The position numbers were made by a program, and so were the translations under genes. Shown one piece after another: positions 7,653 to 41,842 of a DNA stretch of 64,000 nt (the first letter of the stretch is position 1; each line of letters opens with the position of its first letter). This DNA is from Alphaproteobacteria bacterium (GTDB lineage: Bacteria > Pseudomonadota > Alphaproteobacteria > UBA2966): the NCBI GenBank assembly GCA_964291395.2, contig OZ219856.1, positions 384,001 through 448,000 on the forward strand, written 5' to 3'. The notes beneath the pieces are model-generated. The model was not told where the DNA came from. It did not search any database and worked only from the letters and a program-made list of their open reading frames with translations.

Positions 7653-8939
7653 TTACGCCCCGGCCGTCGGCAACGTATTCTTGCATACCCGCCCGTCCTG
7701 CATGATCAGGACAATCCGATCCTTGTCCCTGAGGACACGGACGTCCCGGGACGGATCGCCGTCCACGATCAGCAGATCGGCCGCCTTTCCCACCTCCAGC
7801 GTGCCCCACGACCCGCTCCGGCCGATCGCGCGAGCCGAGGTCCGGGTCGCCGCCTGGAGGACCTCCATTGCGGACAGTCCCAGATCCTGCAGATATTCCA
7901 TTTCGGAGACGAGGTCGTAAGGCGGGAAGACGTGCGCCGCGTCGGAGCCGACGCCGATCGGGGTTCCCGCGCGTCGGGCACGCTGGACGGTGTCCGCGCA
8001 GGCTTCGTAGGCCACCCGGCAGCGGTCGATGAACGTCTGCACGTCCGAGGGTTCCGTGCCGCCCGATCGGAGGAACGCCCGAGCGTAATCCTCGTTCACG
8101 CGGAAGTGCAGCCAGGAAATGGTCGGCACGAACACGCAGCCCGCCTCGGCCATCAGATCGAGGCCTTCGTCATCCGCGAATTCCCCGGAGTGAAGGGAGA
8201 TAACGCCGGCGCGGACCGCGTCCTTGATCCCGTCGGCATCGTGCGCGTGCGCGTGCACCGACTTGCCGAACTTCGCTGCTTCCTTCACGGCCGCGTCGAT
8301 CTCCTCGAAGGAAAGGTCCTGCGTGTCCCCGTCGATCCACGGGTTGCCCGGTGTCCCGCTGGCGGTCACCTTGACCCAATCGACACCGGATCGGATCTGC
8401 TTGCGCACGGCGGTCTGCATTTCCTCGGTGCCGTTCACGGCGACGCCGAGATAGGTCTCGTTCTCGTGGTAACCCCAGGCGCCGGTGTGATCTCCGATAC
8501 CGCCCGACCCCGACAGCATCTGGCCCGCCGCCACGACCTTGGGTCCCCTGATCACACCCTTGGCGACCGCATCCCGAACCGCCGTGCCGATGCGGCCCCG
8601 GCAGGCGCCGTCGCCCACCGCCGTGCAACCCGTCTCCAGGACCAGAGCCGCGTTCTCCGCGGCCTTGAGAACGTTGAACTCCAGGCTCTCGTTCATCTGC
8701 TGAAGGATGAGCGCGTATTCCTTGGCGTGATAGGTCAGGTGGGTATGCGCATCGATCAGTCCGGGCATGACCGTGCGGCCCTCCGCGTCGATGACCTCCA
8801 TGTCCGGGGTGGTCTCGAGCGAGGCACCCTCTCCGGACCGGCTGATCCGCCCCTGCTCGACGACCAAGGTCCAGCCGTGGCGGACGTCGATGTCCGTCCC
8901 GTCGACGAGACGTGCATTGACGATGGCGGTCGCCGCCAT
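7653..8939 (-). CDS. Metal-dependent amidohydrolase (Xaa-Pro dipeptidase-like subfamily)
   Basis: MPGLIDAHTH, KVTASG, HAHAH, GSDA, G.LEVGKAADL. Confidence 0.88.
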   Translation of the reverse strand: MAATAIVNARLVDGTDIDVRHGWTLVVEQGRISRSGEGASLETTPDMEVIDAEGRTVMPGLIDAHTHLTYHAKEYALILQQMNESLEFNVLKAAENAALVLETGCTAVGDGACRGRIGTAVRDAVAKGVIRGPKVVAAGQMLSGSGGIGDHTGAWGYHENETYLGVAVNGTEEMQTAVRKQIRSGVDWVKVTASGTPGNPWIDGDTQDLSFEEIDAAVKEAAKFGKSVHAHAHDADGIKDAVRAGVISLHSGEFADDEGLDLMAEAGCVFVPTISWLHFRVNEDYARAFLRSGGTEPSDVQTFIDRCRVAYEACADTVQRARRAGTPIGVGSDAAHVFPPYDLVSEMEYLQDLGLSAMEVLQAATRTSARAIGRSGSWGTLEVGKAADLLIVDGDPSRDVRVLRDKDRIVLIMQDGRVCKNTLPTAGA

Positions 8940-8942
8940 CGG

Positions 8943-10391
8943 CTAGCCCTGCGGCACGCCCGCGTCGTCGAGGAAACTCCGGTCGTTGACCGGATTGGGC
9001 CGGTCGCAGGGCAGGAACTCGCCCCGGCCCGCCTTGCCCACGAACTCTCCGTCATGCCAGATGATTTCGCCGCGAGACACGGTCACTTCGGGCCAGCCCT
9101 GGACGTCGAGTCCGTCATAGGGCGTGTAGTCCATGCCGTCGTGCAGACCGGCGATGGAAATGGTCGTTCGACGATCGGCATCCCACACCGCGAAATCCGC
9201 GTCCGAGCCGACGCCGATCGTGCCCTTGCGCGGGTAGAGGCCATAGATCTTGGCGGGATTCGTGGCGGAGACGGCAACCACCTGGTTGAGGTCGATGCCG
9301 CCCGCCGTCACGGCGCGGGAGAACAGCAGCGGCAGGCGCGTCTCCACCCCGGGCACGCCGTTGGTGATCCGGTTGAACGGCGGGTTCGGTCCGTGCACCA
9401 GCTTGCCCTGGGGGTCGTCATAGCGGAATGCCGCGTGATCCGACGAATAGACGTGGAAAACGCCGGTCTCCATGGCGTGCCATAGGGCGGCTTGGTTCTC
9501 GGGCGTTCCGGGCGGCGGCGCGCAGATGCACTTGGCGCCCTCCATGCCGTCCTTATCGAGATCGTTCTCGTTCAGGAACAGGTACTGGGGACAGGTTTCA
9601 CCGTACACCTTGAGACCGCGGCTCTGCGCCCACCGGATCGTCTCCGCCGCCTCGCCGGTGGCGACATGGACGATCAGGATCGGCACGTCGGCGATCTCGC
9701 CCAGGGTGATCGCCCGGTGCGCCGCCTCGCGTTCCACCGGCGGCTGGTGCGCGATGCCCTTGAACTTCGGCGCCACGCGGCCGCTCTCCAACAGCTTTCC
9801 GGTCAGCCAGACGATGCAGTCCGCGTTCTCGGCGTGAATCATCATCATGGCGCCGTGACGGCGCGCGACCGACATGACTTCCAGGATCTCATGGTCGCTC
9901 AGCATCAGGGCCTTGTAGGTCATGTAGACCTTGATCGAGGTGTAACCCTCCTCGATCAGCGACGGCACTTCCTGGCCGAGCACCTGAGCCGTGGGGTCGG
10001 CGACGATCAGGTGTATGGCGTAGTCGATGACCGCCTTGCCGACGGGCTTCCGGCGATACGCCTCGACGGCGGCGCGCAGCGATTCGCCCTTGATCTGCCG
10101 CGCGAAGGGAATCAGGGTCGTCGTCCCGCCGCAGGCCGCGGAAACCGTGGTCGTGTAGAAGTCCGTGCCGGGCCGGGCGCCCGTCTCCGGGGAGTCCTGC
10201 TCGATGTGAACGTGGGCGTCGATCCCGCCGGGCAGGACGTACTTACCGGTCGCGTCGACGGTTCGCGCAGCATCGCGCAGCCCGTCGCCCAGTGCGGCGA
10301 TCTTGCCGTTCCTGACTCCCACGTCGCAAACCCAGGTGTCGGCGGCCGTCACCACCGTGCCACCCCGGACCACGAGATCGAATTCCGTCAT
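8943..10391 (-). CDS. hydA: Dihydropyrimidinase / D-hydantoinase
   Basis: PGGIDAHVH, KVYMTY (carboxylated Lys), IHAEN, GETCPQYL, SSDHA, GVPGVETR, NPAKIYGLYPRKG; start could be 10391 or 10418. Confidence 0.92.
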   Translation of the reverse strand: MTEFDLVVRGGTVVTAADTWVCDVGVRNGKIAALGDGLRDAARTVDATGKYVLPGGIDAHVHIEQDSPETGARPGTDFYTTTVSAACGGTTTLIPFARQIKGESLRAAVEAYRRKPVGKAVIDYAIHLIVADPTAQVLGQEVPSLIEEGYTSIKVYMTYKALMLSDHEILEVMSVARRHGAMMMIHAENADCIVWLTGKLLESGRVAPKFKGIAHQPPVEREAAHRAITLGEIADVPILIVHVATGEAAETIRWAQSRGLKVYGETCPQYLFLNENDLDKDGMEGAKCICAPPPGTPENQAALWHAMETGVFHVYSSDHAAFRYDDPQGKLVHGPNPPFNRITNGVPGVETRLPLLFSRAVTAGGIDLNQVVAVSATNPAKIYGLYPRKGTIGVGSDADFAVWDADRRTTISIAGLHDGMDYTPYDGLDVQGWPEVTVSRGEIIWHDGEFVGKAGRGEFLPCDRPNPVNDRSFLDDAGVPQG

Positions 10392-10482
10392 GCGCGTCCC
10401 CCCTGTCCTGTCCATCACAGACTACGCTTTGCGGCGGGATGGTGCCAGGCACGGCGCCTGTCACCGAGGGCCTCGAGCCGCA

Positions 10483-10511
10483 TTGACACGCCGTATGCCG
10501 CCTTTCATCGT
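10483..10511 (+). promoter_or_regulatory. Putative sigma70 promoter of the urease-like cluster
   Basis: TTGACA, 17 bp spacer, CATCGT, about 85 bp upstream of ureE. Confidence 0.45.
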
Positions 10512-10595: not shown

Positions 10596-11045
10596 ATGCT
10601 CCGCCTGACCGGCATTGTGGGCCACGCGAGCGACGCCGAAATCGCGGACAGATTGCATGACCTCGGTCACCACGGACGCGTCGAGAGCATCGTCCTGAGG
10701 CGTGCCGATACTCTGCGCCATCGACTCAGGATCAATACGGACCGGGGCACCGAATGCGCGATCGCGCTCGCCCGGGACCAGCATCTGTCCCAGGGGGCCG
10801 TCCTTCTTCTCGAGGACGATCGGGCCATCGTCGTGCGCATGGAAGAGGAATCCTGGCTGCCGCTGGAACCGCGGGACGCCGCCACGGCGCTGGAACTCGG
10901 CTATTTCGCAGGCAACCTGCACTGGCGCGTCCGCTTCGACGGTGAAGTCCTCAAGGTGGCCCTGGAAGGTCCCGAGGCCGACTACATCGCCCGCATCGAG
11001 CCGTTTCTCGCCGACGGTCGGGTGAGGCGGGTTTACGATGGCTGA
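10596..11045 (+). CDS. ureE: Urease accessory protein UreE (short, no His-rich tail)
   Basis: RLR..TDRG.E.AI.L.R...L..G..L and ALELGYFAGNLHW (GNxH Ni motif); lies in the 3' part of ORF 9492..11045. Confidence 0.82.
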   Translation: MLRLTGIVGHASDAEIADRLHDLGHHGRVESIVLRRADTLRHRLRINTDRGTECAIALARDQHLSQGAVLLLEDDRAIVVRMEEESWLPLEPRDAATALELGYFAGNLHWRVRFDGEVLKVALEGPEADYIARIEPFLADGRVRRVYDG

Positions 11046-11718
11046 GCCGGCGCGCCTCCTCGCCGCGCTGCAGCACGGCGACAGCTTCTTTCCGAGTGGG
11101 GGCGTTTCCTTCTCCTGGGGCCTCGAATCGCTATGCGCGGAGGGTCTGGTCGCCGACGAGACGGATGTTTGCCGGTTCGTCCAAGGTCAGCTCAGCCATC
11201 GTTGGGCGACGTGCGACCGTCCTGCCTTGATCGCTGCCCATCGGGCAGGAAGGAATCTTGAGAGCGTTGCCCTCGTTGACGCGGAACTCGAGGCCCTGGC
11301 GCTGCCCCAGGGATTGCGCGTCGGCAGCCGGCGCGCCGGTGGGGCGCTCCTCAACGCCCATGAGCGATTGGAGACCCGACACGCCAAAGAGTATCGGCGG
11401 ATGGTCAAGACCGGATCGGCGTTCGGGCATCTCCCGGTGGTGCAGGGACTGGCATGGGGCGCCGTCGGGCTCGCCGAAGAAGTGGCGGCGGCCGTATCGG
11501 CCCACACCCTTTGCGTGGCCCTCCTGGGTGCGGCGCTTCGGCTCGGCGTCATCGGCCATGTGGGGGCGCAGCGGATTCTCGATGACATGCGGCCCGAAAT
11601 GACTCGCTTGCTGTCGTTGCCGGTCCCGCCGCCCGGCAACTTCAGCGCCTGCACCCCGGCCGCCGATATCGCCGTGATGCGCCACGAGACGGCGGAGGTT
11701 CGACTTTTCGCGAATTGA
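11038..11718 (+). CDS. ureF: Urease accessory protein UreF
   Basis: LQHGDSFFPSGG.SFSWGLE, AALRLG.IG...AQ, C-terminal HE....RLFAN. Confidence 0.92.
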   Translation: MAEPARLLAALQHGDSFFPSGGVSFSWGLESLCAEGLVADETDVCRFVQGQLSHRWATCDRPALIAAHRAGRNLESVALVDAELEALALPQGLRVGSRRAGGALLNAHERLETRHAKEYRRMVKTGSAFGHLPVVQGLAWGAVGLAEEVAAAVSAHTLCVALLGAALRLGVIGHVGAQRILDDMRPEMTRLLSLPVPPPGNFSACTPAADIAVMRHETAEVRLFAN

Positions 11719-11745
11719 AATCGACACCAGTCAGGGAGGAAGAGG

Positions 11746-12447
11746 ATGCTTCTGACACCCACCGAGATGGAGCGGTTGACCATCTTCACCGCGGCCGAGC
11801 TCGCGCGCCGGCATCAGGCCAAGGGGCTTCAACTCAATCATCCCGAGGCCGTCGCCATCATCGTCGATGAAATTCTCGAGCGCGCTCGCGAGGGCCAGAG
11901 CGTGGCGGAGCTGATCAGCTTGGGGTCAACCCTGCTCACGACGGATGATGTGCTGCCCGGCGTGGCGGACCTCATGCCGATGATCCAGGTGGAGGCGACC
12001 TTTCCTGACGGGACCAAGCTCGTCACGGTCCACGACCCGATCCGCCCGGGCAAGAAACCTATCGCCAAGAAGGACCGGATCGCGCCAGGTGAAATCATCG
12101 CGGCGGAAGGCGACATCGAGCTCAATGCCGGCCGTCGCACCGCGACGGTCAAGGCCGTGAATACCGGCGATCGGCCGATCCAGGTGGGCAGCCACTACCA
12201 CTTCTTCGAGGTGAACAAGGCGCTGGACTTCGATCGCGCAGCCGCATTCGGCATGCATCTCGACATTCCGGCGGGAACCGCCGTTCGCTTCGAGCCGGGC
12301 GAAAGCAAGGAGGTCACGCTGGTCGCCTTCGGCGGCACCGGCGAGGTCCATGGTCTCAATTCATTGACCGACGGGGCGACGCGCAGCGACAACCGCCGGG
12401 AAGAGGCGCTGCGGCTCGCCCGTGATGCCGGATTCAAGGGAGCCTGA
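11746..12447 (+). CDS. ureA: Fused urease gamma/beta subunit
   Basis: MLLTPTE.ERL...LNHPEA...[14 protein letters not shown] (gamma) joined to [22 protein letters not shown]...[14 protein letters not shown] (beta). Confidence 0.95.
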
Positions 12448-12450
12448 GCC

Positions 12451-14163
12451 ATGGCCACGATCACACGCAAGGAATACGCCGAGCTCTACGGCCCGACCAC
12501 CGGTGACGCGATCCGCCTCGGCGATACCTCGTTGCTCGCCGAAGTCGAGCACGACTTTGCCTTCCCGGGCGACGAATGCCTGCATGGCGGTGGCAAGACG
12601 CTCCGCGACGGGCTAGGTCTCACGGCCGGTTACGACAGCGCCGCGGGGTCGCTCGACATGCTGCTCTGCAATGCCCTGGTGATCGATCCCGTCCTCGGTG
12701 TCGTGAAGGCCGATATCGGCATCAAGGATGGCGTCCTCTCGGGCGTTGGCAAGGCCGGGAACCCGGCGGTGATGGATAACGTCGACCCGGCGCTGGTCTG
12801 CGGCGCGGCGACCACGGTCCGGGACGCCGAAGGCCTCATCGCAACACCGGGCGGCATCGACGTCCACGTCCACTTCGACAGCGCCCAGCTCTGCGAGCAC
12901 GCCATCGCCTCGGGGATCACCACCATGATCGGCGGCTCGCTCGGCCCCATCACCGTGGGCATCGACTGCGGCGGGGCCTGGAACGTTGGCAAGATGCTGC
13001 AGGCCGCCGAGCAGTGGCCGATCAATTTCGGCTTCCTCGGACGCGGCAACTCATCCAAGCCGCGGTCGCTACTCGATCAGATATCCGGCGGTTGCCTCGG
13101 CCTCAAGATCCATGAGGACTGGGGTGCCATGCCGGCGGTGATCGACACCTGCCTGTCGGTCGCCGACGACCTCGACTTCCAGGTTCAACTGCATACGGAC
13201 ACGCTCAACGAGAGCGGATTCCTGGAAGACACGCTGGCCGCGATCAACGGTCGCACCATCCACATGTACCACACCGAGGGAGCGGGCGGCGGCCACGCAC
13301 CCGACATCATCCGCGTGGCGGGAGAGGCCAACTGCCTGCCGTCTTCGACCAATCCCACCAATCCCTACACGGTCAACACCTTCGACGAGCACCTCGACAT
13401 GACGATGGTGTGTCATCACCTGAACCCGGCCATACCCGAGGACGTGGCTTTTGCGGAAAGCCGAATCCGGGCGCAGACCATCGCCGCCGAGGACGTGCTC
13501 CACGATATCGGCGCAATCTCGATGCTGGGCTCCGACAGTCAGGGCATGGGCCGGATCAACGAGGTGATCTGCCGGACCTGGCAGCTCGCCAGTAAGATGA
13601 AGGATCAGCGGGGGCGTTTGGACGAGGAACAGACCCGCATCGGGGACAACGAGCGCATCCGCCGGTATATCGCGAAGTACACCATCAACGCGGCCCGTAC
13701 GTTCGGGATCGATGATCACGTGGGATCTCTGGAACGTGGCAAGCTCGCCGACGTGGTGCTCTGGCGGCCGGGATTCTTCGGCATCAAGCCCGAGCTCGTG
13801 GTCAAGGGCGGTTTCATCGTCTGGGGTGCGATGGGCGACAGCGCCGCGTCGTTGATGACCTGCGAGCCGCTGATGATGCGTCCCCAGTGGGGAGCCTTTG
13901 GCGAGGCCCGCAAGGCGCTGAGCGCGAGCTTCGTCAACCAGGGCGCCGTGGACGCCGGCATCGCCGAGGGGCTCGGACTCAGGAAACGCGTGCTGCCGGC
14001 GCGGGGGACCCGCAAGCTCAACAAGCAGCACATGCTGCGCAACGACGCGTGCCCCGACATTCGCGTCAATCCGCAGACCTTCGACGTCTTCGTCGACGAC
14101 GAGCTGGCGACCTGCGAGCCGGCCTCGACGTTGCCGTTGACGCAGAGATACATGCTGCGATGA
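12451..14163 (+). CDS. ureC: Urease alpha subunit homolog with divergent active-site loop
   Basis: [56 protein letters not shown]. Confidence 0.93.
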
Positions 14164-14795
14164 ACGCCGCCGTCACACAGGACTCTCCCTCGGCTGCCCG
14201 GGTCGGCATCGGCGGGCCCGTCGGGTCGGGCAAGACCGCGCTGCTCGAGCAGTTGATCCCCCGGTTCGAGGCACGGGGCACCGAGATCGCGGTCGTGACC
14301 AACGATCTCGTGACAAAGGAGGACGCGGAGCGGCTACGCCGCAGCGGGTTGATCGCGCCGGACCGCGTCATGGCCGTCGAAGCCGGCGCCTGTCCCCACA
14401 CGGTCATCCGCGAGGACCCCACGCTCAACATCGAGGTCGCGGATCTGTTGGAAGACACGTTCGATCCGCTCGATCTCATCATCATCGAGAGCGGCGGGGA
14501 CAATCTCGCCTCCACGTTCTCCCTGGACCTCGTCGATTACTGGCTGTTCGTGATCGACGTGGCCGGCGGCGACGACATCCCCCGCAAGCGGGGCCCGGGT
14601 GTCGTGCAGAGCGACATCCTGGTGATCAACAAGGCGGACCTCGCACCCTACGTCGGTGTCGATCTCGACCGGATGATCGCCGAGGCCGCCGACGTGCGCT
14701 CGGGCCGTCCCGTGCTCGTGACCAACTGTGCCACCGGCGAGGGAGTCGACGCGGTCGTCGAGCGGCTGGTCCACGACGTGTTGTTCGATGAATAG
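14160..14795 (+). CDS. ureG: Urease accessory GTPase UreG
   Basis: [31 protein letters not shown]. Confidence 0.95.
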
Positions 14796-15660
14796 CATCG
14801 CCCCGCTGCCGCTCGCGGGAGAGGGACAGGGCGAGGGCCCTGGCCGCCTGTCCCTGACGTTTTCCCGTGACGGCGACGGCCGGACCTACTTGGACCGCCA
14901 ATTCGCGGGCTATCCGTTCCACGTCTGCCGGCCGCATTATTTCCCGCACGATGTACCGGGGATGGCAACGCTCTACGTTCAGTCGAGCGCAGGGGGCCTC
15001 TACCAGGAGGATGCGCACGACATCGAGATCGTTGCGAATGACTGGACGCGTGCTCACGTCACGACTCAGGCGTCGACCATCGTGCACGGCATGGAGCGCG
15101 GAGCCGCCGTGCAACGGACGACCGTCACCGCTGGTCCCGGAAGCCACGTGGAAGTGGTTCCGGATCCCCTGATCCTGTTCCCCGCCGCGAGTCTGTCGAC
15201 GACGCTGATGGCTCGCATCCACGATACGGCCACGGCCGTCATCGCGGAAGCGTTCCTGATGCACGACCCGGACTCGGCAGACGCGGCATTCGATTCCTTT
15301 CAGGCCGAAGCGGTCATCGGGGATTGGGACGGTACGACCCTTGCCGTTGACCGTTTTCGTATTTCGGGCCGCGACGTCTTTGCGGCGACGCCCGGAATTA
15401 CCGGGGCAGCGCGGGCGCAGGGCCTGCTCATGATCGTGGGGCGCGGAACGGACCAATCCGGCCTCATCGCAGCTCTGCGCGCAGATCTGGGCGTGCAGGA
15501 AGACGCATTCGGCGGCGTATCCGAATTGCCCAACGGTGCCGGCGTCTCGGTGCGGCTGCTGGCGCCTGACGGAGCCGCGCTCCGCGCCGCCATGCTCGCC
15601 GCCTGGGCGTCGGCCAGTGAGACTCTGACCGGTGTGCGGCCATTGCTGCGGCGCAAGTGA
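14788..15660 (+). CDS. ureD: Urease accessory protein UreD
   Basis: [23 protein letters not shown]; ends LLRRK; overlaps ureG stop. Confidence 0.9.
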
Positions 15661-15751: not shown

Positions 15752-16525
15752 ATGGAACCAGGCGTGAAGGGATTCGACCTGATCGATCGCGTGGCCGTCA
15801 TAACCGGCGGCAACGGTCGGATGGGGCGTGCCAGTGCCTTGAGGCTGGCGGCCGCCGGAGCCGAAGTGGTGGTCACCGACGTGACGCTCGACGGCGCGCA
15901 GGACATCGTCTCGGAGGTCGGGGAAGCCGGACGAAAAGCCCTTCCTGTGATCATGGTCGTCACCGACGGCGACGCTGTCCGGCTGACCGCCGATCGGATC
16001 GTCGCCGAGTTTGGCTCCGTCGACATCTTGGTCAATGCCGCCGGCGTGACCAAACGCCAACCCGCCGAAGAGTTTCCCGAGGCAGATTGGGACCGGATTA
16101 TCGGCATCAATCTCAAGGGCACCTTCCTGTGCTGCCAGCTTTCGGGCGCCCGATGATCGCTTCGGGCCGCGGCACCATCGTCAACCTGGCCTCGATCGGC
16201 GGGGTCATCGCTCTCCCCAACAGCGTTGCCTATTGTGCCAGCAAGGGCGGCGTCGTTCAGGTGACTCGCACGCTCGCGGTCGAATGGGCGCCGCACGGGG
16301 TGCGGTCAATGCCATTGCGCCGTCGCCTATTGACACGCCGCTCGTCCGAGCCGTGTTGGACGCGCCGAGCCCGAATATCGGCAGCGCATGTTGGAGAACG
16401 TTCCCCTGGGCCGCATGGGCAAGCCCGAGGAAGTCGCCGATGCGGTGCTGTATCCGGCATCCGACGCCTCGGCCCTGGCGACCGGGACCGTCCTGCCGGT
16501 GGATGGCGGCTACATGGCGCGGTAG
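15752..16525 (+). pseudogene. Frameshifted SDR oxidoreductase
   Basis: SDR motifs (TGGNGRMG/VNAAG; NLASI..YCASK; VNAIAP; PLGRMGKPEEVA..VDGG) lie in four successive segments separated by three -1 shifts near 16140, 16305 and 16365. Confidence 0.8.
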
Positions 16526-16603
16526 GCGGTCGATTGTTGACTCGTCTCTGGCTCGGGCTCATCGTGAGACCTCGCCGCGCGAGATGCTGGCCGGGCTGGT
16601 TGC

Positions 16604-17425
16604 ATGCTGACTGCCGAGGAAAAGCAGACATTCGACGAAGAGGGGCTGGTCGTGCCCGGCTACCGGCTCCCCGACGACTTGATGAGCGACCTTCGCGCGC
16701 TGACGGATCGGGTCATCGCGGAAACACCGCAGATACCGCCGGATTTCCTGTTCAGTCCGCATTTGCCCTGGGCCGGACAGAAGGACACGAGCCTGAGCGA
16801 CGGCTTCATGGCCATCTGCCATCGCCCCGAGATCCTCGACGCGGTCGAGGCCCTCATCGGTCCCGACATCATCTTGTGGGCGAGTCGAATCTTCTGCAAG
16901 CCGGCGCGCACCGGCCTGGAGATCCCCTGGCACCAGGACGGCACATCGGGCTGGCCGATGCGGCCGCTGGCGTCCGTCGCGGTCTGGATTGCCGTGGATG
17001 ATTCCACGGCCGAGAACGGCTGCATGCGCTACATCCCGGGGTCCCACAAGCTGGGCGAGCTGCCGTTTGAGTTCTCCTCGCGTACGGACCTGGCGGTCAA
17101 CGTCGAGATCGACAACAGGGAATTCGATGCTTCGACCTCCCGCGACAACGTACTCGAGTCAGGACAATTCTCGATCCACCACATGTTCCTGGTGCACAGC
17201 TCGCAGCCCAACCTGTCCGGCAAGCGCCGCGCCGGGTTCGCGATGCGGGTCATGCCCGCGACCTCCCATTACGACCGCTCGAACGTCGTGGAGAGCCCGT
17301 CGAACCGGTACGACTTCGACCTCGCCAACGCGCCGCTCTTCCTGCTGCGCGGGGTTGACGCCTGTGGCCGGAACGACATCGTCACCGGACCCGTCGAGCC
17401 GCTGGATCTGAAGAAAGTCGGCTGA
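16604..17425 (+). CDS. Phytanoyl-CoA dioxygenase (PhyH) family protein
   Basis: PWHQD, VWIA.DDST.ENGCM.YIPGSH, LVH.S.PN.S..RR. Confidence 0.9.
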   Translation: MLTAEEKQTFDEEGLVVPGYRLPDDLMSDLRALTDRVIAETPQIPPDFLFSPHLPWAGQKDTSLSDGFMAICHRPEILDAVEALIGPDIILWASRIFCKPARTGLEIPWHQDGTSGWPMRPLASVAVWIAVDDSTAENGCMRYIPGSHKLGELPFEFSSRTDLAVNVEIDNREFDASTSRDNVLESGQFSIHHMFLVHSSQPNLSGKRRAGFAMRVMPATSHYDRSNVVESPSNRYDFDLANAPLFLLRGVDACGRNDIVTGPVEPLDLKKVG

Positions 17426-19985: not shown

Positions 19986-20396
19986 ATGGCTATCATCGGC
20001 AAGGATACGCCCGTCGGCACCGAACTGCCGGTCTTCGCCCGCCGGTTCCGCAACGAGATGTTCGCCATGGGCGACATCAAGACCATCCATAATGACGATG
20101 CGGCCGCCCAACGGGAGGGCCTGCCCCGCGCCGTTGCCGTCGGCCCACAGGTCGCCGCGCTGATCTTCCGCATGATGCGTTCCTGCTTCGAGGAAGGCTG
20201 GATCGTCGGCGGCAGGGTCGCGCTGACCTTCCGCCGTCCCGTCTGGTCGAACGACTTCGCCACGGCGCACGGCGTGATCAAGGACAAGGAAGTGGAAAGC
20301 GACAAGGTGCGCGTGGTTTGCGACGTCTGGGTCGAGCGCGGCGACGGCGAGAAGGCGATCGTCGGAACCTGCAGCGCCTTGGTGCCGGGCGCGTAA
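19986..20396 (+). CDS. MaoC family dehydratase
   Basis: TIHNDD.AA..EGL..AVA.G hydratase-like motif, L.FRRPV. Confidence 0.78.
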   Translation: MAIIGKDTPVGTELPVFARRFRNEMFAMGDIKTIHNDDAAAQREGLPRAVAVGPQVAALIFRMMRSCFEEGWIVGGRVALTFRRPVWSNDFATAHGVIKDKEVESDKVRVVCDVWVERGDGEKAIVGTCSALVPGA

Positions 20397-20419
20397 GGCG
20401 GCGGACCGGTCGTCTCCGA

Positions 20420-22483
20420 ATGGACATTCACGTCGGCATCGACGTCGGGGGCACGTTCACGGATGTCGCCGTCAATGTGCCGGAGGCAAATCGATTCATT
20501 CATTTCAAGCTGCCCAGCACGCCGGGTGAGCCCGATCGCGCGATCGTCGAGGGTGTCGCCCGGGCACTGGCCGAGAATGATCTGAATGCGCGGGACGTCA
20601 TGCGGCTCTCCCACGGCACCACGGTGGGCACCAACGCCCTGATCCAGCGTCGCTGCGGCCGTGTCGCCGTCGTGACCACGGAAGGCTTCCGCGACTTGAT
20701 CGAGATCGGGCGTCAGGTCCGACCCCGCATGTACGACATTCATCTCGATTACCCATCGCCCATCGTGCCCCGTCAGCTTCGCTTCGAGGTACGTGAGCGG
20801 CGCCGCGCCGATGGGACGGTACACCTCCCCCTCGACGAGGCCGGACTGAGGGATCTGGCCCGCACGTTGGTCGATGCGGAGGTGGAGTGTGTCGTGGTGT
20901 GCTTCCTCAATTCTTACGCTTGGCCGGAACACGAGGAACGGGCCGTGGCGCTTCTGAGAGCGACGCTGCCGCCGGCCGTTCACGTCCTCTCCTCGACGTC
21001 CGTCTATCCGGAATTCCGAGAGTACGAGCGGTTCTCGACCGCAGTCCTCAACGGTGCCCTGCTTACCGTCATGAATGCATACCTGAATCGGTTCACGGTG
21101 GGTCTCGAAGGCATCGGCGTACGGGCTGACCCGAAGGTCAGCCAAAGCGCGGGTGGATTGATGTCGCTCGGGATGGCGCGGCGGCTGCCCATTCGCGCGT
21201 CATTGTCGGGGCCGGCCGCCGGTGTGTCCGGTGCCGCGGTCCGGGCCGCCGCTGCGGGCTTCGAGGATATCATCACGCTCGATGTCGGCGGGACGAGCAC
21301 GGATGTTAGCCTGATGAAGGGTGGAATCCCCGGCGAGGTGTACGAACATGAGATCGCCGGCTTTCCGCTGAGGTTGCCTGCGATCGACGTGAACGCGGTC
21401 GGCGCGGGCGGTGGCTCCATCGCCTGGATCGACTCGGATGACCTGTTGAAGGTAGGTCCCATGAGCGCAGGGGCAGATCCGGGGCCGGCTTGTTATGCGC
21501 TCGGCGGCGGCCAGGCCACGGTGACGGACGCCAATGTTGTGCTGGGGCGCCTCAATGGGGACGCCTTGCTGGGTGGGGGCATGCCCATCGCCAAGCCCCT
21601 TGCTGTCGAGGCGGTTCGGCGATTGGCGGCATGCCTGGATCTGGAATTGGAGGAAACGGCCCTCGGGATCGTCCGGGTGTCGGCGGCAACGGTGGTCAAA
21701 GCCATCCGTGCGATCTCCGTGGAGCGAGGTCACGATCCGTCCGGATTCGCCCTCTATGCCTTCGGCGGCGCGGGTCCCCTGTTCGCCGTTGACGTCGCCC
21801 GCCAGCTCGATATCGCCCGGGTCATCGTCCCGCCGCATCCCGGTATCTTGTGCGCCGAAGGCTTGCTCAACTGCGACATGGCGAGCGATTTCGTGAAATC
21901 GGCGCTGGTGGCCGCGGGCACGGATGCACCGCCCGCCCTGAATTCGGCGCGTAGAGAGCTCCTGGCGCGCTCGGGGAGCTGGCTCGACGAGGAAGGCGTG
22001 CCTCCGGATAGAAGATCACTATCGTGGTCTGTCGATATGCGTTACCGCGGCCAGAACTTCGAGATCGGCGTCGCGAGCGACGGGGAGGAATTCGACGCGG
22101 CGGCCTGCGAATGCCTCGTCCAGGCCTTTCATGCTGCGCACGAGGCCAACTATGGGTTCGCGTCGCCGGACGAGCCCGTGGAATTCGTCAATCTCAAGCT
22201 CAAGGGGATGGCGAACCTCGATCAGCCGGACCCGGCGGTCTGGGTCGTGTCGACCGAAGGCAAGCCTCATGCGTCGCGGGACGTCGTCTTCGGGGGCGCG
22301 GAACGCATCACCGCCCCGCTGTATAGGCGTGAAGAACTGGGACGCGATCAGGTCATCGAGGGGCCGGCGGTGGTTGAGCAGTTCGACTCGACCCTGCTCG
22401 TCTTTCCGGGCGATCACGGCCGGGTCGACGACTGGGGGAACATCGTGATCACGCTCGCGGAGGGTGGCCCGTCATGGAACTGA
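20420..22483 (+). CDS. Hydantoinase A / oxoprolinase family ATP-binding subunit
   Basis: GIDVGGTFTD, HGTTVGTNA, SGPAAG, DVGGTSTD, GAGGGS, SAGADPGPACY. Confidence 0.93.
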   Translation: MDIHVGIDVGGTFTDVAVNVPEANRFIHFKLPSTPGEPDRAIVEGVARALAENDLNARDVMRLSHGTTVGTNALIQRRCGRVAVVTTEGFRDLIEIGRQVRPRMYDIHLDYPSPIVPRQLRFEVRERRRADGTVHLPLDEAGLRDLARTLVDAEVECVVVCFLNSYAWPEHEERAVALLRATLPPAVHVLSSTSVYPEFREYERFSTAVLNGALLTVMNAYLNRFTVGLEGIGVRADPKVSQSAGGLMSLGMARRLPIRASLSGPAAGVSGAAVRAAAAGFEDIITLDVGGTSTDVSLMKGGIPGEVYEHEIAGFPLRLPAIDVNAVGAGGGSIAWIDSDDLLKVGPMSAGADPGPACYALGGGQATVTDANVVLGRLNGDALLGGGMPIAKPLAVEAVRRLAACLDLELEETALGIVRVSAATVVKAIRAISVERGHDPSGFALYAFGGAGPLFAVDVARQLDIARVIVPPHPGILCAEGLLNCDMASDFVKSALVAAGTDAPPALNSARRELLARSGSWLDEEGVPPDRRSLSWSVDMRYRGQNFEIGVASDGEEFDAAACECLVQAFHAAHEANYGFASPDEPVEFVNLKLKGMANLDQPDPAVWVVSTEGKPHASRDVVFGGAERITAPLYRREELGRDQVIEGPAVVEQFDSTLLVFPGDHGRVDDWGNIVITLAEGGPSWN

Positions 22484-24198
22484 CCGCCATCCAGGTCGAG
22501 CTGCTGCGTAACGCGCTCGGCAGCATCGTCGACGAGATGTACGTGGCGCTGATGAAAAGCGCCTACTCGACCAATATCAAGGAGCGCCGCGACCACTCAA
22601 CGGCGATCTTCGACACCAAGGGGCGTGTCGTGGTTCAGGGTGAAAGCCTGCCGCTTCACTTGGCATCCATGCTCGGTCTCGTGGAGGTCGTTCTCGAGCG
22701 GAGCCGCGACGATCCCTTGCGGCCGGGCGACATGATCGTCTCCAACGACCCCTTCGTCGGCCGGGGCTCGCACCTGCCGGACGTGGCCTTTGTGGCGCCG
22801 GTGTTCGTCGGTGAGCGGCTCGCCTGCTTCGTCGCCAACATCGCCCATCACGCGGATATCGGAGGCATGGCCCCTGGCAGCATGGCGGGCGGTATGACGG
22901 AGATCTACCAGGAAGGGTTGCGGATCCCGCCCGTGCGGTTGGTCCGTGCTGGCGAGATCGTCGACGATCTGTTCGATCTCATCCTGCTGAACGTTCGCGT
23001 GCCCGAGGAGCGCCGCGGGGACTATCTGGCGCAGGTTGCCGCCAACCGGCTGGGCGAGCGGCGCTGTCACGAGCTGCTCGAACGCTGGTCCCTGGAACGG
23101 TTCCGGGCCGGAACGGACGCCATCATCGACGCCGTCGCCAAGCGGACCCGCGCCGCCCTAATCGAAGTGCCCGACGGCACCTACACCTTCAACGACGTCA
23201 TGGATGACGACGGTCTCGGCACCCGGGACATTCCCGTTGCCGTGCGCATTGACGTTGTGGGAGACGAGATCCATTTCGATTTCTCGGGATCGGCGCCCCA
23301 GGTGCGCGGCAACATCAACGTCAGCCGGTCCGCGCTCGAAGCAAGCGTGCTCTATGCCGTCAAGGCGCTCGTCGACCCGGACGGACCGACGAACCACGGT
23401 ATGCTCGATGCCATCCACATCGAGGCTCCCGAAGGCTCCGTGGTCAATGCCGTCTTCCCGGCGGCGACGGCGGCGCGTTCCCAGGTCAGCCAGCGCCTGA
23501 TCGACGTCATCCTGGGGGCGCTGGCGCCGGCATTGCCCGACCGGGTGATCGCCGCGGGCAACGGGGCGAACACCCTGGCCACGTTCTCGGGCGATGACGC
23601 CAATGGAAACTTCTACGTCTACATGGAAGCGATGGGCGGCGGAGCGGGTGCCCGCTCCTACAAGGACGGAACCGACGGCGTGCAGGTCCATTCGACCAAC
23701 ACCTCGAACCTGCCGATCGAATCGCTCGAGCGGGAATACCCCATTCTGATCGAACGTTACGAACTGGTGCCGGACACGGGCGGCGCCGGCACATGGCGAG
23801 GGGGACTTGCCCTTCGCCGCGCCTATCGCCCGATCGGCCACGCGGCGGTCTTCAGTGGACAGGGCGAGCGCATTCTGAACAAGCCCTGGGGGCTCTTCGG
23901 CGGCGGCGAGGGAGCGACCGGCTCCTTCCACTTGGTTCACGACGATGGCCGCAGCGAAACGCTCGCCGTCAAGCCGCATACGGTGGAAATACCGCCAGAC
24001 GCCACCCTCTGCATCACGACGCCGGGCGCTGGTGGCTATGGCCCGCCCGAGGGACGCAGCAAGCGCCGCTTGGCCCTGGACGTAGCCAGCGGAAAACTGT
24101 CGCCTGGACGGCTTGAGGAGCAATACGGTTGCGACGTATCTGAATTGCCTGATGTAGTGGATTCCACCGATACTGTTCGCGTCGTTCGGGACGACTAG
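22474..24198 (+). CDS. Hydantoinase B / oxoprolinase family subunit
   Basis: SAYSTNIKERRDHS, NDPF..GSHLPD, HHADIGG..PGS, EGLRIPP, GGAGTWRGG, TPGAGGYG. Confidence 0.93.
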   Translation: MELTAIQVELLRNALGSIVDEMYVALMKSAYSTNIKERRDHSTAIFDTKGRVVVQGESLPLHLASMLGLVEVVLERSRDDPLRPGDMIVSNDPFVGRGSHLPDVAFVAPVFVGERLACFVANIAHHADIGGMAPGSMAGGMTEIYQEGLRIPPVRLVRAGEIVDDLFDLILLNVRVPEERRGDYLAQVAANRLGERRCHELLERWSLERFRAGTDAIIDAVAKRTRAALIEVPDGTYTFNDVMDDDGLGTRDIPVAVRIDVVGDEIHFDFSGSAPQVRGNINVSRSALEASVLYAVKALVDPDGPTNHGMLDAIHIEAPEGSVVNAVFPAATAARSQVSQRLIDVILGALAPALPDRVIAAGNGANTLATFSGDDANGNFYVYMEAMGGGAGARSYKDGTDGVQVHSTNTSNLPIESLEREYPILIERYELVPDTGGAGTWRGGLALRRAYRPIGHAAVFSGQGERILNKPWGLFGGGEGATGSFHLVHDDGRSETLAVKPHTVEIPPDATLCITTPGAGGYGPPEGRSKRRLALDVASGKLSPGRLEEQYGCDVSELPDVVDSTDTVRVVRDD

Positions 24199-24623: not shown

Positions 24624-24839
24624 TGGGTCCTGCGCCGCGGCGCGGTGAAGGAACGTTTGGGAGCGAATCTCAAAAAATGGGACTCGAGGCGAGACCCGCT
24701 CCCCTGTGGTGTGCTATGAAGCCGCAAGGCGCGGGGTACGAATTCGCTGGGCCCGGCGGATATCGCACAGTTTGTTCATAACCGTTTGCAAAATAAAGAT
24801 AACCCCGCCAATCAACATCAAAATCACAAGGAGGACTCG

Positions 24840-25985
24840 ATGCGTGTAACGCTATCCGTGATCAAGGCTGACGTGGGCTCCATTGGCGGTCATACGCAGC
24901 CCTCGGATCGGATGATGGAGGCGGTCCGCGAGGAAGTCGCCGGAGCGATCGGTCGGGGCCTGATCGTCGATGGATACGTCTCCCACACTGGAGACGACAT
25001 CGCCATCATCATGAGCCACACCCGTGGCGAGAACGACACGGACATCCATCAATTCGCCTGGAACGCCTTCCTTAAGGCGACCGACATCGCCCGGGAGTAC
25101 GGTCTCTATGGAGCCGGACAGGATCTGCTCGTCGATGCGCCCTCGGGAAATGTCCGCGGTGCCGGACCGGCAGTCGCCGAGATCGAATTCGAGCACACGC
25201 TGGAGAAACCGCGGCCAGCCGAGTCGTTCATGGTGTTCGCGGCCGACAAGTGCGGTCCCGGTGCGTACAACCTGCCGTTGTTTCTCGGCTTTGCCGATCC
25301 CATGTTCTGCGCCGGATTGATGCTGCCGCAGATGATAAAGGGATTCACGTTCCACGTGATCGACATGGACAACACGGCCGGCGATTCGCTCATCGAACTC
25401 AACACGCCGGAGGACTATTACCACCTCACGGCGCTGCTCCGGGACAACGAACGCTTCGGCATCGACTCGATCTATTCTCGGACCTACGACACCAAAGCCG
25501 CGGCAGTTTCCGCGCAGCGCCTGCACTCCATCGCGGGTACCTACACCGGCAAGGACGATCCTGTAGCGATCATCCGCAACCAAGGTGTCTTTCCGGCACC
25601 CGAAGAACTCGTTTCGCCGTTCGCCAAGGCGCACTATGTCGGCGGCGATGCGCGAGGGTCCCACAACATGCCGCTCATGCCGGTGGCGATCAACACCGCC
25701 GTGGCCGGCGTCTACTGCCTGCCCATCGTGAGTTGCCTGGGCTTCTCGCTGGGTCGCGACGGGCATTTCTCCGATGCCGTGACGGACTTCTTCGACAACG
25801 TGGCTTGGGACGAGGTTCGTCGGCGCGCCCAGAACAAGGGCAACGAGATGCGCCTCCAGGGCTGGTCGGGGCCCGCCATGCTGCCTTACACCGAGCTTGA
25901 GTATGGCGGATTCCGCGATACGGTCACGGGGCTGGTCGACCGTTTCCAAATTCGCGGGAGTACGGAGGCCGAGGCGGCCGAATAA
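24840..25985 (+). CDS. fbp: Bifunctional fructose-1,6-bisphosphate aldolase/phosphatase (class V FBPase)
   Basis: TLSVIKADVGS.GGH, GDDI, GLYGAGQDLL, GNVRG.GP, ADK..PGAYN.P, YTGKDDP; AAGGAGG ribosome-binding site. Confidence 0.92.
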   Translation: MRVTLSVIKADVGSIGGHTQPSDRMMEAVREEVAGAIGRGLIVDGYVSHTGDDIAIIMSHTRGENDTDIHQFAWNAFLKATDIAREYGLYGAGQDLLVDAPSGNVRGAGPAVAEIEFEHTLEKPRPAESFMVFAADKCGPGAYNLPLFLGFADPMFCAGLMLPQMIKGFTFHVIDMDNTAGDSLIELNTPEDYYHLTALLRDNERFGIDSIYSRTYDTKAAAVSAQRLHSIAGTYTGKDDPVAIIRNQGVFPAPEELVSPFAKAHYVGGDARGSHNMPLMPVAINTAVAGVYCLPIVSCLGFSLGRDGHFSDAVTDFFDNVAWDEVRRRAQNKGNEMRLQGWSGPAMLPYTELEYGGFRDTVTGLVDRFQIRGSTEAEAAE

Positions 25986-41707: not shown

Positions 41708-41842
41708 GCGGAGTCCTCCACGGCGTTTCCTCGAAGACCCCCACAATACCGCGAACAGGCGCGAGTGGCACGACAGTCCGGGTCCATACGGGCACCATGG
41801 CGGTCCGAGCTCCGCTTCACTCCGACGGCGGGGGAAACCGGC

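What the first reader, a model, noticed from the sequence alone, without database searches (positions are those of the whole stretch)
12931..13548. UreC keeps all Ni ligands but has lost the conserved GGGTGPxxGTxATTxTPG loop and has DSQG in place of DSQA
Seen: HxH, the carbamylated Lys in [14 protein letters not shown], the MVCHH flap and the SD aspartate are all present. At 12931-12981 the sequence is [17 protein letters not shown], about three residues shorter than canonical [20 protein letters not shown] (Klebsiella, from memory). DSQAMGR is DSQGMGR (codon 13543-13545), HIHxIxPQ is HVHFDSAQ and KFGGGK is LHGGGK. Known: backbone carbonyls of the Ala in the ATT loop and the Ala in DSQA contact the urea amino group. 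Inference: both contact sites changed together, which suggests an enlarged or reshaped pocket.
Basis: partly seen in the sequence, partly recalled or inferred. Interest (0 to 1): 0.78.

Follow-up and report, generated by a model that had tools for sequence, protein, structure and literature searches.

The report
Urease lineage with rebuilt urea-binding wall
This is an intact nickel urease gene set of a widespread, horizontally spread and biochemically untested lineage in which the two backbone positions that hold one nitrogen of urea are both changed, so it most likely still splits urea but could have altered kinetics or substrate range.

Summary
UreC (12451-14163, 570 aa) keeps every nickel ligand, the lysine that is carbamylated in known ureases, and the flap Cys-His. 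Its loop at 12931-12981 is three residues shorter than in solved ureases and lacks their A-T-T motif, and it reads DSQG where they read DSQA. This is a clade signature: 120 of 120 closest relatives share it. UreC identity jumps from at most 61% (canonical) to at least 77% (variant), with nothing between.

The gene lies in a complete ureE-ureF-fused ureAB-ureC-ureG-ureD cassette that travels as a unit, also on plasmids. Elsewhere its neighbours are urea/amide importers, aliphatic amidase, arginase-family and purine-breakdown genes, which points to urea as the substrate.

Of 19 carrier genomes, 15 also have a canonical urease. This genome has only the variant.

The two changes go together across the whole family. 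Pocket geometry could not be computed. No biochemical study of the lineage turned up.

Verdict: probably a true urease isozyme (0.65). A shifted substrate range is not excluded (about 0.2). The scan had already noted this lineage in another genome (e1-4766400).

The parts
10596..11045 (+). ureE, nickel chaperone
   Evidence: NCBIfam NF009752 UreE scores 194.8 bits (cut-off 162). It matches residues 12-156 of the translation from 10563, so the ATG at 10596 is the likely start.
11038..11718 (+). ureF, accessory protein
   Evidence: Pfam UreF PF01730, 99.6 bits. No NCBIfam hit.
11746..12447 (+). ureAB, fused gamma/beta structural subunit (233 aa)
   Evidence: NCBIfam NF009671 'bifunctional urease subunit gamma/beta', 358.6 bits (cut-off 243). 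The gamma and beta models match residues 1-100 and 113-211.
12451..14163 (+). ureC, catalytic alpha subunit of the variant lineage (570 aa)
   Evidence: TIGR01792 scores 823.3 bits (cut-off 680). It is 55-56% identical to solved ureases. The AlphaFold2 model has pLDDT 87.1 and pTM 0.92, with TM 0.96 and rmsd 1.8-1.9 A to jack bean, K. aerogenes and S. pasteurii ureases.
12580..12597 (+). LHGGGK (residues 44-49), clade-specific change where K. aerogenes has KFGGGK
   Evidence: L44 and H45 are fixed in 125 variant sequences, against K/F in 87-93% of 15 canonical ones.
12865..12888 (+). HVHFDSAQ (residues 139-146): the two HxH nickel ligands followed by the clade-specific DSA
12931..12981 (+). 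Rebuilt active-site loop [17 protein letters not shown] (residues 161-177), 3 residues shorter than canonical. Gly170 aligns with K. aerogenes Ala167 and S. pasteurii Ala170.
13543..13545 (+). Gly365 codon (GGC) in DSQGMGR, in place of the Ala whose carbonyl and C-beta line the Ni(2) site
14160..14795 (+). ureG, GTPase. Its ATG overlaps the ureC stop codon (ATGA).
   Evidence: TIGR00101 scores 234.7 bits (cut-off 204.2). Sequence read.
14728..15660 (+). ureD, accessory protein. The ORF runs from a GTG at 14728; the ATG at 14788, overlapping the end of ureG, is the more likely start.
   Evidence: Pfam UreD PF01774, 109.4 bits, residues 83-282. ORF.

Best explanation
The window carries a complete nickel-urease cassette, ureE-ureF-fused ureAB-ureC-ureG-ureD. 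It belongs to a distinct, highly conserved lineage that moves between bacteria by horizontal transfer.

The enzyme most likely still hydrolyses urea by the standard two-nickel mechanism. All metal ligands, the lysine that is carbamylated in known ureases, the substrate-orienting His/Asp/Arg residues and the flap Cys-His are present, and a full nickel-insertion set is encoded beside it.

What differs is the wall next to Ni(2) that accepts hydrogen bonds from the metal-bound urea nitrogen. One Ala sits in a loop that is now 3 residues shorter and rewritten. The other, in DSQA, is now Gly. These two changes are structurally coupled and are the signature of the lineage. They probably tune affinity, rate or tolerance for near-urea substrates rather than abolish urea hydrolysis.

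Shown: sequence features, clade structure, cassette mobility, gene neighbourhoods, fold. Inferred: nickel loading, urea as main substrate, any kinetic effect.
For: - **Catalytic residues:** all conserved in the alignments to solved ureases.
- **Family scores:** TIGR01792 823 bits against a cut-off of 680. UreAB, UreE and UreG score above their NCBIfam cut-offs; UreF and UreD match Pfam.
- **Fold:** TM 0.96, rmsd 1.8-1.9 A to ureases.
- **Purifying selection on the signature:** 120 of 120 relatives carry it.
- **Cassette order** conserved in most of 80 loci: UreAB 78, UreD 74, UreF 73, UreG 73, UreE 69.
- **Neighbours in the 80 loci:** UrtA-like binding protein 40, permeases 30 and 30, aliphatic amidase AmiE 21, AmiR/ANTAR regulator 19, arginase-family (urea-releasing type) genes 11.
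- **Annotated records:** urtBCDE plus HupE/UreJ beside allantoin genes in Aminobacter; urate and allantoin genes plus urtA in Methylobacterium radiotolerans; urtA in Acinetobacter.
- **Sole urease in some genomes:** it is the only urease in this genome and in 3 further genomes.
- **Habitat label:** DNA runs that hold the stretch include runs labelled sponge metagenome.
- **Weak hint of expression:** contigs of one RNA library cover parts of ureE, ureF, ureAB/ureC, ureG and ureD with 0-2 differences. The tool warns that DNA carry-over is possible.
Against: - Both first-shell contact positions for the Ni(2)-bound urea nitrogen differ from every solved urease.
- 15 of 19 carrier genomes also hold a canonical urease, against 123 of 400 sampled genomes of the phylum with any urease. 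This could mean the two are not redundant. I picked 15 of those 19 by hand, so the figure is not a random sample.
- The binding protein next to the cassette scores 414 bits, below the UrtA cut-off of 492.75. An aliphatic amidase with an amide-type regulator sits directly upstream in about a quarter of loci.
- This genome has no UrtA above cut-off, and the window's own flanks are cyclic-amide hydrolases, not urea genes.
- In a quick tree the lineage joins more divergent short-loop urease-like clades that have lost further active-site residues.
- My paper searches found no activity measurement for any member.
Confidence: 0.65

Rival explanations
1. Shifted or broadened substrate range. The rebuilt Ni(2)-side wall (Gly170 in the shortened loop, and Gly365 with no C-beta) makes room for, or reorients, a urea derivative or small amide, such as an N-substituted urea, a ureido compound or a short-chain amide. 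The lineage would then serve as a second, non-redundant hydrolase beside the canonical urease.
For: - Both changed positions are the hydrogen-bond acceptors for the metal-bound nitrogen, and the Ala366 C-beta touches that site.
- The changes are fixed in the clade, and 6 of the 7 absolute differences from canonical enzymes fall there.
- 15 of 19 carriers also have a canonical urease.
- AmiE with AmiR occurs in 21 and 19 of 80 loci, and the binding protein scores below the UrtA cut-off.
- Related short-loop cassettes sit beside isochorismatase-family and amidase-signature hydrolases.
- The title of a paper in the reference list of PMC6077230 says that even jack bean urease acts on formamide, acetamide and N-methylurea.
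Against: - Ala to Gly keeps the backbone carbonyls that do the hydrogen bonding.
- Every other catalytic and flap residue is unchanged.
- The neighbourhoods include urea-releasing pathways (arginase family, purine breakdown) and annotated urea transporters.
- Four genomes, this one included, have the variant as their only urease.
- No pocket geometry could be computed.
Confidence: 0.2
2. Neutral lineage signature. The loop was rewritten once in an ancestor, and Ala to Gly followed as a packing compensation. The enzyme would be kinetically indistinguishable from other ureases. It accompanies canonical ureases only because the cassette is mobile and is picked up by organisms that already use urea.
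For: - DSQG and non-canonical loops co-vary perfectly (8 to 0), as expected for a packing pair.
- The cassette is found on plasmids and in several phyla at 77-88% identity.
- It is not found in 5 genomes of the same genus or 7 of the same family, which fits recent acquisition.
Against: A neutral change would not be expected to stay letter-perfect in 120 of 120 relatives across classes. The absolute differences concentrate at the catalytic site and are not spread over the protein.
Confidence: 0.1
3. Inactive or non-catalytic urease-like protein, or one that uses another metal.
For: Brucella ure2 is reported not to encode an active urease (abstracts of PMC2868824 and PMC2492869 in the listing). 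The iron urease of H. mustelae exists as a solved structure (3qga).
Against: - All ligands and catalytic residues are intact.
- UreE, UreF, UreG and UreD are present and conserved with the cassette.
- A HupE/UreJ nickel-transporter family gene is adjacent in Aminobacter.
- Conservation is very strong.
Confidence: 0.05

Closest known systems
Canonical nickel ureases with solved structures (K. aerogenes UreABC, S. pasteurii, jack bean, H. pylori)
   Same: Same fold (TM 0.96, rmsd 1.8-1.9 A) at 53-56% identity. Same nickel ligands, carbamylation-site Lys, His221/Asp223/Arg338 and flap Cys-His. Same UreD/E/F/G maturation set.
   Different: The loop after the second strand is 3 residues shorter and lacks the A-T-T motif. 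Gly replaces both Ala residues whose carbonyls bind the Ni(2)-bound urea nitrogen. It also has HFDSAQ, LHGGGK and 46 clade-discriminating columns in all. The gamma and beta subunits are fused, and the gene order is E-F-AB-C-G-D.
Helicobacter ureases (fused gamma-beta subunit UreA plus UreB)
   Same: Two-gene structural arrangement with a fused gamma/beta chain. NF010592 matches the window's UreAB at 265 bits, below its cut-off of 353.
   Different: The best subunit model is NF009671, not the Helicobacter model. The alpha subunit scores 741 bits against NF010591, below its cut-off of 1083. The accessory gene order differs.
Haloarchaeal ureases (Haloarcula hispanica pHH400), the nearest canonical relatives found (61% identity)
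   Same: They share HF-N/D-SAQ after the HxH motif and a somewhat shortened loop.
   Different: Haloarcula keeps the A-T-T motif and DSQA, has separate beta, alpha and gamma genes, and the order B-C-A-G-D-E-F.
More divergent short-loop, DSQG/DTQG urease-like clades (representatives P0123, P0130 and P0134; locus L106 in a Marinibaculum genome; L108 on Aminobacter sp. SR38 pSR3)
   Same: Short non-canonical loop together with Gly after D-S/T-Q. Fused UreAB, and in L106 the same E-F-AB-C-G-D order. They group with the variant clade in the quick tree (SH-aLRT 93).
   Different: These clades have lost further conserved residues (Trp of HEDWG, flap Cys or second His) and evolve fast. The window's clade keeps all of these residues and is very slowly evolving.
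Brucella ure2 (second urease operon, reported inactive)
   Same: A second urease gene set in a genome that also has a working one (abstracts).
   Different: As recalled, not tested here, Brucella ure2 has separate ureA, ureB and ureC genes and a different gene order with urea and nickel transporters. No sequence comparison was made here.

Membership tests
Nickel urease alpha subunit (EC 3.5.1.5; TIGR01792 / PF00449) | Profile score above the curated equivalog cut-off | tested here: met
   TIGR01792 823.3 bits against 680; NF009686 866.2 against 354.
Nickel urease alpha subunit | Six metal-site residues: HxH, carbamylation-site Lys, two further His, Asp | tested here: met
   H139, H141, K219, H248, H274 and D362 align with the K. 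aerogenes and jack bean ligands. Carbamylation itself cannot be tested here.
Nickel urease alpha subunit | Substrate-orienting and acid/base residues: His of KxHED, Asp, flap Cys-His, Arg | tested here: met
   H221, D223, C321/H322 (MVCHH) and R338 are present.
Nickel urease alpha subunit | Ni(2)-side hydrogen-bond acceptor wall: Ala in the G-T-x-A-T-T loop and Ala of DSQA | tested here: not met
   The loop is 3 residues shorter with no A-T-T. Gly170 and Gly365 stand at the aligned positions. The role of the two Ala residues is taken from PMC7433671 passages. The backbone carbonyls may still be in place, but that could not be tested.
Nickel urease alpha subunit | Urease alpha fold: (beta/alpha)8 barrel plus beta domain | tested here: met
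   The AlphaFold2 model has pLDDT 87.1. The top 39 Foldseek matches are urease chains with TM 0.91-0.96.
Urease holoenzyme system | Gamma and beta structural partners | tested here: met
   Fused UreAB, NF009671 358.6 bits against 243.
Urease holoenzyme system | Nickel-insertion proteins UreD, UreE, UreF, UreG | tested here: met
   UreE and UreG score above their NCBIfam cut-offs. UreF and UreD match Pfam. All four are conserved with the cassette in 69-74 of 80 loci.
Urease holoenzyme system | Urea hydrolysis activity, nickel dependence | not testable with these tools
No published measurement for this lineage turned up.

The most novel reading that the evidence does not exclude
The short-loop, Gly-for-Ala group of urease cassettes may not be ordinary ureases. 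This window's clade is its most conserved and most widespread member. These cassettes may instead be nickel hydrolases whose rebuilt nitrogen-binding wall admits substituted ureas, ureido compounds or small amides. That would explain why most carriers keep a canonical urease as well, and why the cassette is often joined to amide-sensing and amidase genes.
Probability: 0.18. Interest if true: 0.8.

Novelty: new variant of a known kind. Interest (0 to 1): 0.5.

Why it matters
Urease is a textbook enzyme, and its substrate contacts are taken to be invariant. Here a lineage replaces both backbone positions that hold the metal-bound urea nitrogen yet keeps everything else. It is found in at least 541 stretches of a one-genome-per-species collection, and on plasmids of Aminobacter, Methylobacterium, Shinella, Ancylobacter and Acinetobacter.

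If it is a normal urease, it shows how much that wall can vary. It is also a natural test case for the proposed role of the two Ala carbonyls. If its kinetics or substrate range differ, then ureC-based surveys of urea use in soil, sea and sponge microbiomes lump together two functions.

All genes needed for a direct test are contained in about 5 kb.

Tried and rejected
- **Representative-library search.** At 50% clustering the lineage is merged with canonical ureases, so the search did not delimit the subfamily. It did supply divergent urease-like sequences.
- **Careful maximum-likelihood tree.** It did not finish in two runs of 288 s. Only the quick tree (SH-aLRT, midpoint drawing) is used.
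- **Sigma-54-type promoter upstream of ureE.** There is one 2-mismatch match at 10484-10498, but the window holds 41 such matches against 52.9 expected by chance. Rejected as evidence.
- **Window flanks as conserved context.** None of the two amidohydrolases, DUF3179, PhyH and BKACE genes was found beside the cassette in 80 other loci.
- **UrtA in this genome.** The best match scores 79 bits against a cut-off of 492.75, so a dedicated urea importer neither supports nor contradicts the reading.
- **Closest solved relative of the cassette-linked binding protein.** It is 8tg1, an entry with no informative name. A paper search for that code found nothing relevant.
- **Paper searches for a characterised member or a named second type of urease** found none. 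The library lacks most subscription journals, so this does not prove absence. Methylobacterium sp. NMS14P, whose plasmid carries the variant, is reported urease-positive (passages of PMC9904496). I did not check whether it also has a canonical urease, so this does not discriminate.
- **RNA-library contigs.** They also cover neighbouring genes at similar low depth, and the tool warns of DNA carry-over. I do not count them as proof of transcription.

Full report
**1. What is in the window**

The ORF at 12451-14163 (+) encodes a 570-aa protein. It scores 823 bits against the urease alpha equivalog TIGR01792, whose cut-off is 680. It aligns end to end with every solved urease at E about 1e-200.

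Five further genes surround it on the same strand:
- ureE, 10596-11045
- ureF, 11038-11718
- a fused gamma/beta gene ureAB, 11746-12447
- ureG, 14160-14795, whose ATG overlaps the ureC stop codon
- ureD, ending at 15660

These assignments rest.

**2. Check of the observation**

Residues 161-177 (12931-12981) read [17 protein letters not shown], and codon 13543-13545 is Gly365 in DSQGMGR.

HMMER's alignments to K. aerogenes and jack bean ureases put gaps of two and one residues in the window protein across this loop. They pair its T-V-G-I-D-C with the T-H-A-T-T-C of K. aerogenes. Gly170 therefore stands where K. aerogenes has Ala167.

A local search with the loop region shows the same three-residue difference against S. 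pasteurii, H. mustelae and Y. enterocolitica ureases. For H. pylori the local alignment ended before the loop.

The residues that are kept are H139/H141, K219, H221, D223, H248, H274, C321/H322, R338 and D362.

**3. It is a clade signature**

All 120 closest proteins in the large protein collection are 85-99% identical to the window's UreC. They come from MAGs labelled Gemmatimonadota, Alpha- and Gammaproteobacteria among others. All 120 carry the same loop (two have Ser for Cys, one has Arg for Trp), DSQGMGR and CLHGGGK. 117 of the 120 carry the exact [13 protein letters not shown].

In a collection holding one genome per species, at least 541 stretches encode a relative. The best 80 are 78-95% identical and come from Alpha-, Beta- and Gammaproteobacteria, a Chloroflexota MAG and a Nakamurella MAG. 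Cultured carriers include Amorphus, Pontibaca, Marinibaculum, Pelagibius, Paracoccus, Methylorubrum and Methylobacterium.

On plasmids the lineage occurs in Aminobacter, Shinella, Ancylobacter, Methylobacterium and Acinetobacter at 77-80% identity.

Identity to the window protein is bimodal. In 400 sampled genomes of the phylum, three matches are 77-81% identical and all the others are at most 59%. On plasmids the next best after 77% is 61%.

**4. The cassette moves as a unit**

In the 80 loci, UreAB was found in 78, UreD in 74, UreF in 73, UreG in 73 and UreE in 69, almost always in the order E-F-AB-C-G-D. None of the window's flanking genes recurs beside the cassette elsewhere.

No urease was found in five genomes of the same genus or seven of the same family. 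Genomes of the same order have canonical ureases at 56-58% identity. The cassette is therefore an acquired trait in this genome.

**5. What the changed positions do**

Passages of the review PMC7433671 make three relevant statements about S. pasteurii urease:
- The backbone carbonyls of alpha-Ala170 and alpha-Ala366 accept hydrogen bonds from the Ni(2)-bound nitrogen of diamidophosphate and of urea in the fluoride-urea complex.
- The Ala366 carbonyl also binds the distal nitrogen.
- The Ala366 C-beta makes van der Waals contact with the water at that site.

Ala to Gly keeps a backbone carbonyl but removes the C-beta and adds flexibility.

**6. The two changes are coupled across the family**

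Among 26 representatives of 50%-identity clusters that show both motifs:
- 16 have DSQA-type with the canonical loop
- 8 have DSQG-type with a non-canonical loop
- 0 have DSQG with a canonical loop
- 2 have DSQA with loops that look frameshifted

I aligned 125 variant and 15 canonical sequences. 46 columns separate the two groups. Only seven of these are fixed in both groups, and six of the seven lie in the loop (163, the gap after 167, 171, 172, 174 and the gap beside it) or at 365. The seventh is K/R198. The canonical set is small and was chosen by motif, which favours this result.

**7. Fold**

An AlphaFold2 model built from a 30-sequence alignment has mean pLDDT 87.1 and pTM 0.92. The block of residues 161-170 averages 73.

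Foldseek's best matches are ureases: TM 0.96 and rmsd 1.8-1.9 A to jack bean, K. aerogenes and S. pasteurii. Scores then drop steeply to other amidohydrolases.

No solved structure belongs to the variant lineage.

**8. Place in the family**

A quick maximum-likelihood tree of 59 full-length sequences recovers the variant clade with full support and a long stem of 0.4. It joins this clade to a group of faster-evolving urease-like proteins with short loops and DSQG (SH-aLRT 93, below the 95 mark). Canonical ureases fall on the other side. The careful search did not finish and the tree is unrooted.

Two members of such divergent groups were looked at:
- A third cassette in the Marinibaculum genome (L106) has the same E-F-AB-C-G-D order. 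Its alpha subunit is 54% identical and reads DTQG and HEDLG, with Ala in place of the flap Cys. It lies beside isochorismatase-family and amidase-signature genes and an ABC importer.
- A cassette on Aminobacter sp. SR38 plasmid pSR3 (L108) has another short loop, DSQG and MVSHH.

The nearest canonical relatives are the haloarchaeal ureases at 61% identity. They keep A-T-T and DSQA.

**9. Gene neighbourhoods elsewhere**

I clustered the ORFs of the 80 loci. Two recurring contexts appear.

The first context is an ABC importer:
- The binding protein (40 loci) is UrtA-like but scores 414 bits, below the UrtA cut-off of 492.75.
- It comes with two permeases (30 loci each) and ATPases (47 loci).
- An aliphatic amidase often lies directly upstream of ureE (21 loci; AmiE equivalog, 715 bits).
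- An AmiR/ANTAR regulator is present in 19 loci.

The second context, in 11 loci, is one or two arginase-family genes directly upstream of ureE, with a glutamine-synthetase-like gene in most of these loci. That gene was found in 10 of the 80 loci overall.

In annotated records:
- Aminobacter aminovorans pAA01 has allantoinase and allantoate amidohydrolase, a binding protein plus ANTAR regulator, urtBCDE, the cassette, and a HupE/UreJ family gene.
- Methylobacterium radiotolerans pMRAD01 has urate and allantoin genes, the cassette and urtA.
- An Acinetobacter plasmid has glnT, glutamate-synthase-like genes, urtA and the cassette.

Arginase-family enzymes and purine breakdown release urea, which speaks for urea as the substrate. 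The amidase and amide-regulator link leaves room for a wider role.

**10. Co-occurrence with canonical ureases**

I checked 19 carrier genomes. Fifteen also encode a canonical urease:
- five of five named isolates
- three of three in the random phylum sample
- seven of ten further genomes

Four have the variant only: this genome, two complete MAG chromosomes, and a close relative of this genome. For comparison, 123 of the 400 sampled genomes have any urease. Fifteen of the 19 were picked by me, so the share is indicative only.

**11. This genome**

It has no UrtA above cut-off. The cassette lies between a dihydropyrimidinase and another amidohydrolase on one side. On the other side are a broken-looking dehydrogenase gene, PhyH and BKACE genes, and hydantoinase A/B genes.

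Public runs that hold the stretch include several labelled sponge metagenome. One RNA library has contigs covering parts of five cassette genes with 0-2 differences. The neighbouring genes are covered too, and DNA carry-over cannot be excluded.

**12. Reading**

The most economical explanation is a true nickel urease isozyme of a separate mobile lineage, in which the Ni(2)-side wall was rebuilt once and has been held fixed since. I put this at 0.65.

A shifted or widened substrate range is the main rival, at about 0.2. A purely neutral signature (0.1) and an inactive or other-metal protein (0.05) follow.

I found no biochemical study of any member, but the searchable library omits most subscription journals. 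An earlier report of this scan (e1-4766400) described the same lineage in another genome and reached a similar view. My tests agree with it. They add the family-wide covariation, the identity gap, the co-occurrence counts and the link to more divergent short-loop cassettes.

Noticed in passing
window 15752-16610 (+): A short-chain dehydrogenase gene just after ureD appears split over three reading frames. The N-terminal 134 aa are in one frame, and the middle and C-terminal parts are readable in the other two. It is either a pseudogene or an assembly error. DNA contigs of one public run match this stretch without differences.
   Followed up: partly
L056 4641-10600 (Marinibaculum pumilum) and L055: In two of the 80 loci the variant ureC is not preceded by ureE, ureF and ureAB. 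In L056 it is preceded instead by a Cpn60/TCP-1 family gene (535 aa) and a 521-aa ORF with no Pfam match, and it is followed by ureD. L055's ORFs were not inspected.
   Followed up: partly
L106 (G043:C9:46340-64034): The same Marinibaculum genome has a third, more divergent urease-like cassette with the same E-F-AB-C-G-D order. Its alpha subunit reads DTQG and HEDLG and has Ala in place of the flap Cys. The cassette is flanked by an isochorismatase-family hydrolase, an amidase-signature enzyme and an ABC importer, which suggests a role with urea derivatives.
   Followed up: partly
L108 (Aminobacter sp. SR38 plasmid pSR3, 5295-12196): This is another short-loop, DSQG urease lineage (61% identical; flap MVSHH). 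Its gene order is AB-C-G-D-hypothetical-F, and a binding protein plus ANTAR regulator pair lies downstream. The same strain also carries the window's lineage on another plasmid.
   Followed up: partly
L011, L022, L030, L035, L040, L044, L050, L060 and others, directly upstream of ureE: Two adjacent arginase-family genes lie directly upstream of the cassette in most of 11 loci, with a glutamine-synthetase-like gene in most of them and an ABC-transporter ATPase gene. This may be a two-subunit guanidino-compound hydrolase feeding urea to the cassette.
   Followed up: partly
L064 11214-14311 and 15-16 other loci, downstream of ureD on the opposite strand: A CbbQ/NorQ-type AAA ATPase (16 of 80 loci) and a von Willebrand A protein (17 of 80 loci) recur next to the cassette. 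Such pairs are known as activases of other metalloenzymes (recalled).
   Followed up: no
window 8943-10418 (-), 7653-8939 (-), 20318-24195 (+), 40220-41746 (-): The cassette in this genome lies among cyclic-amide and carbamoyl-type hydrolase genes: a dihydropyrimidinase (723 bits against a cut-off of 647), a second amidohydrolase, hydantoinase A and B, and an M20 peptidase-family gene.
   Followed up: no
window 24786-25982 (+): This is a class V fructose-1,6-bisphosphatase (Pfam FBPase_3, 474 bits). As recalled, that family is typical of archaea and a few bacterial lineages.
   Followed up: no
window 10596-15660: Public runs that hold this stretch include six labelled sponge metagenome (five DNA, one RNA library), so the organism is probably sponge-associated.
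   Followed up: partly
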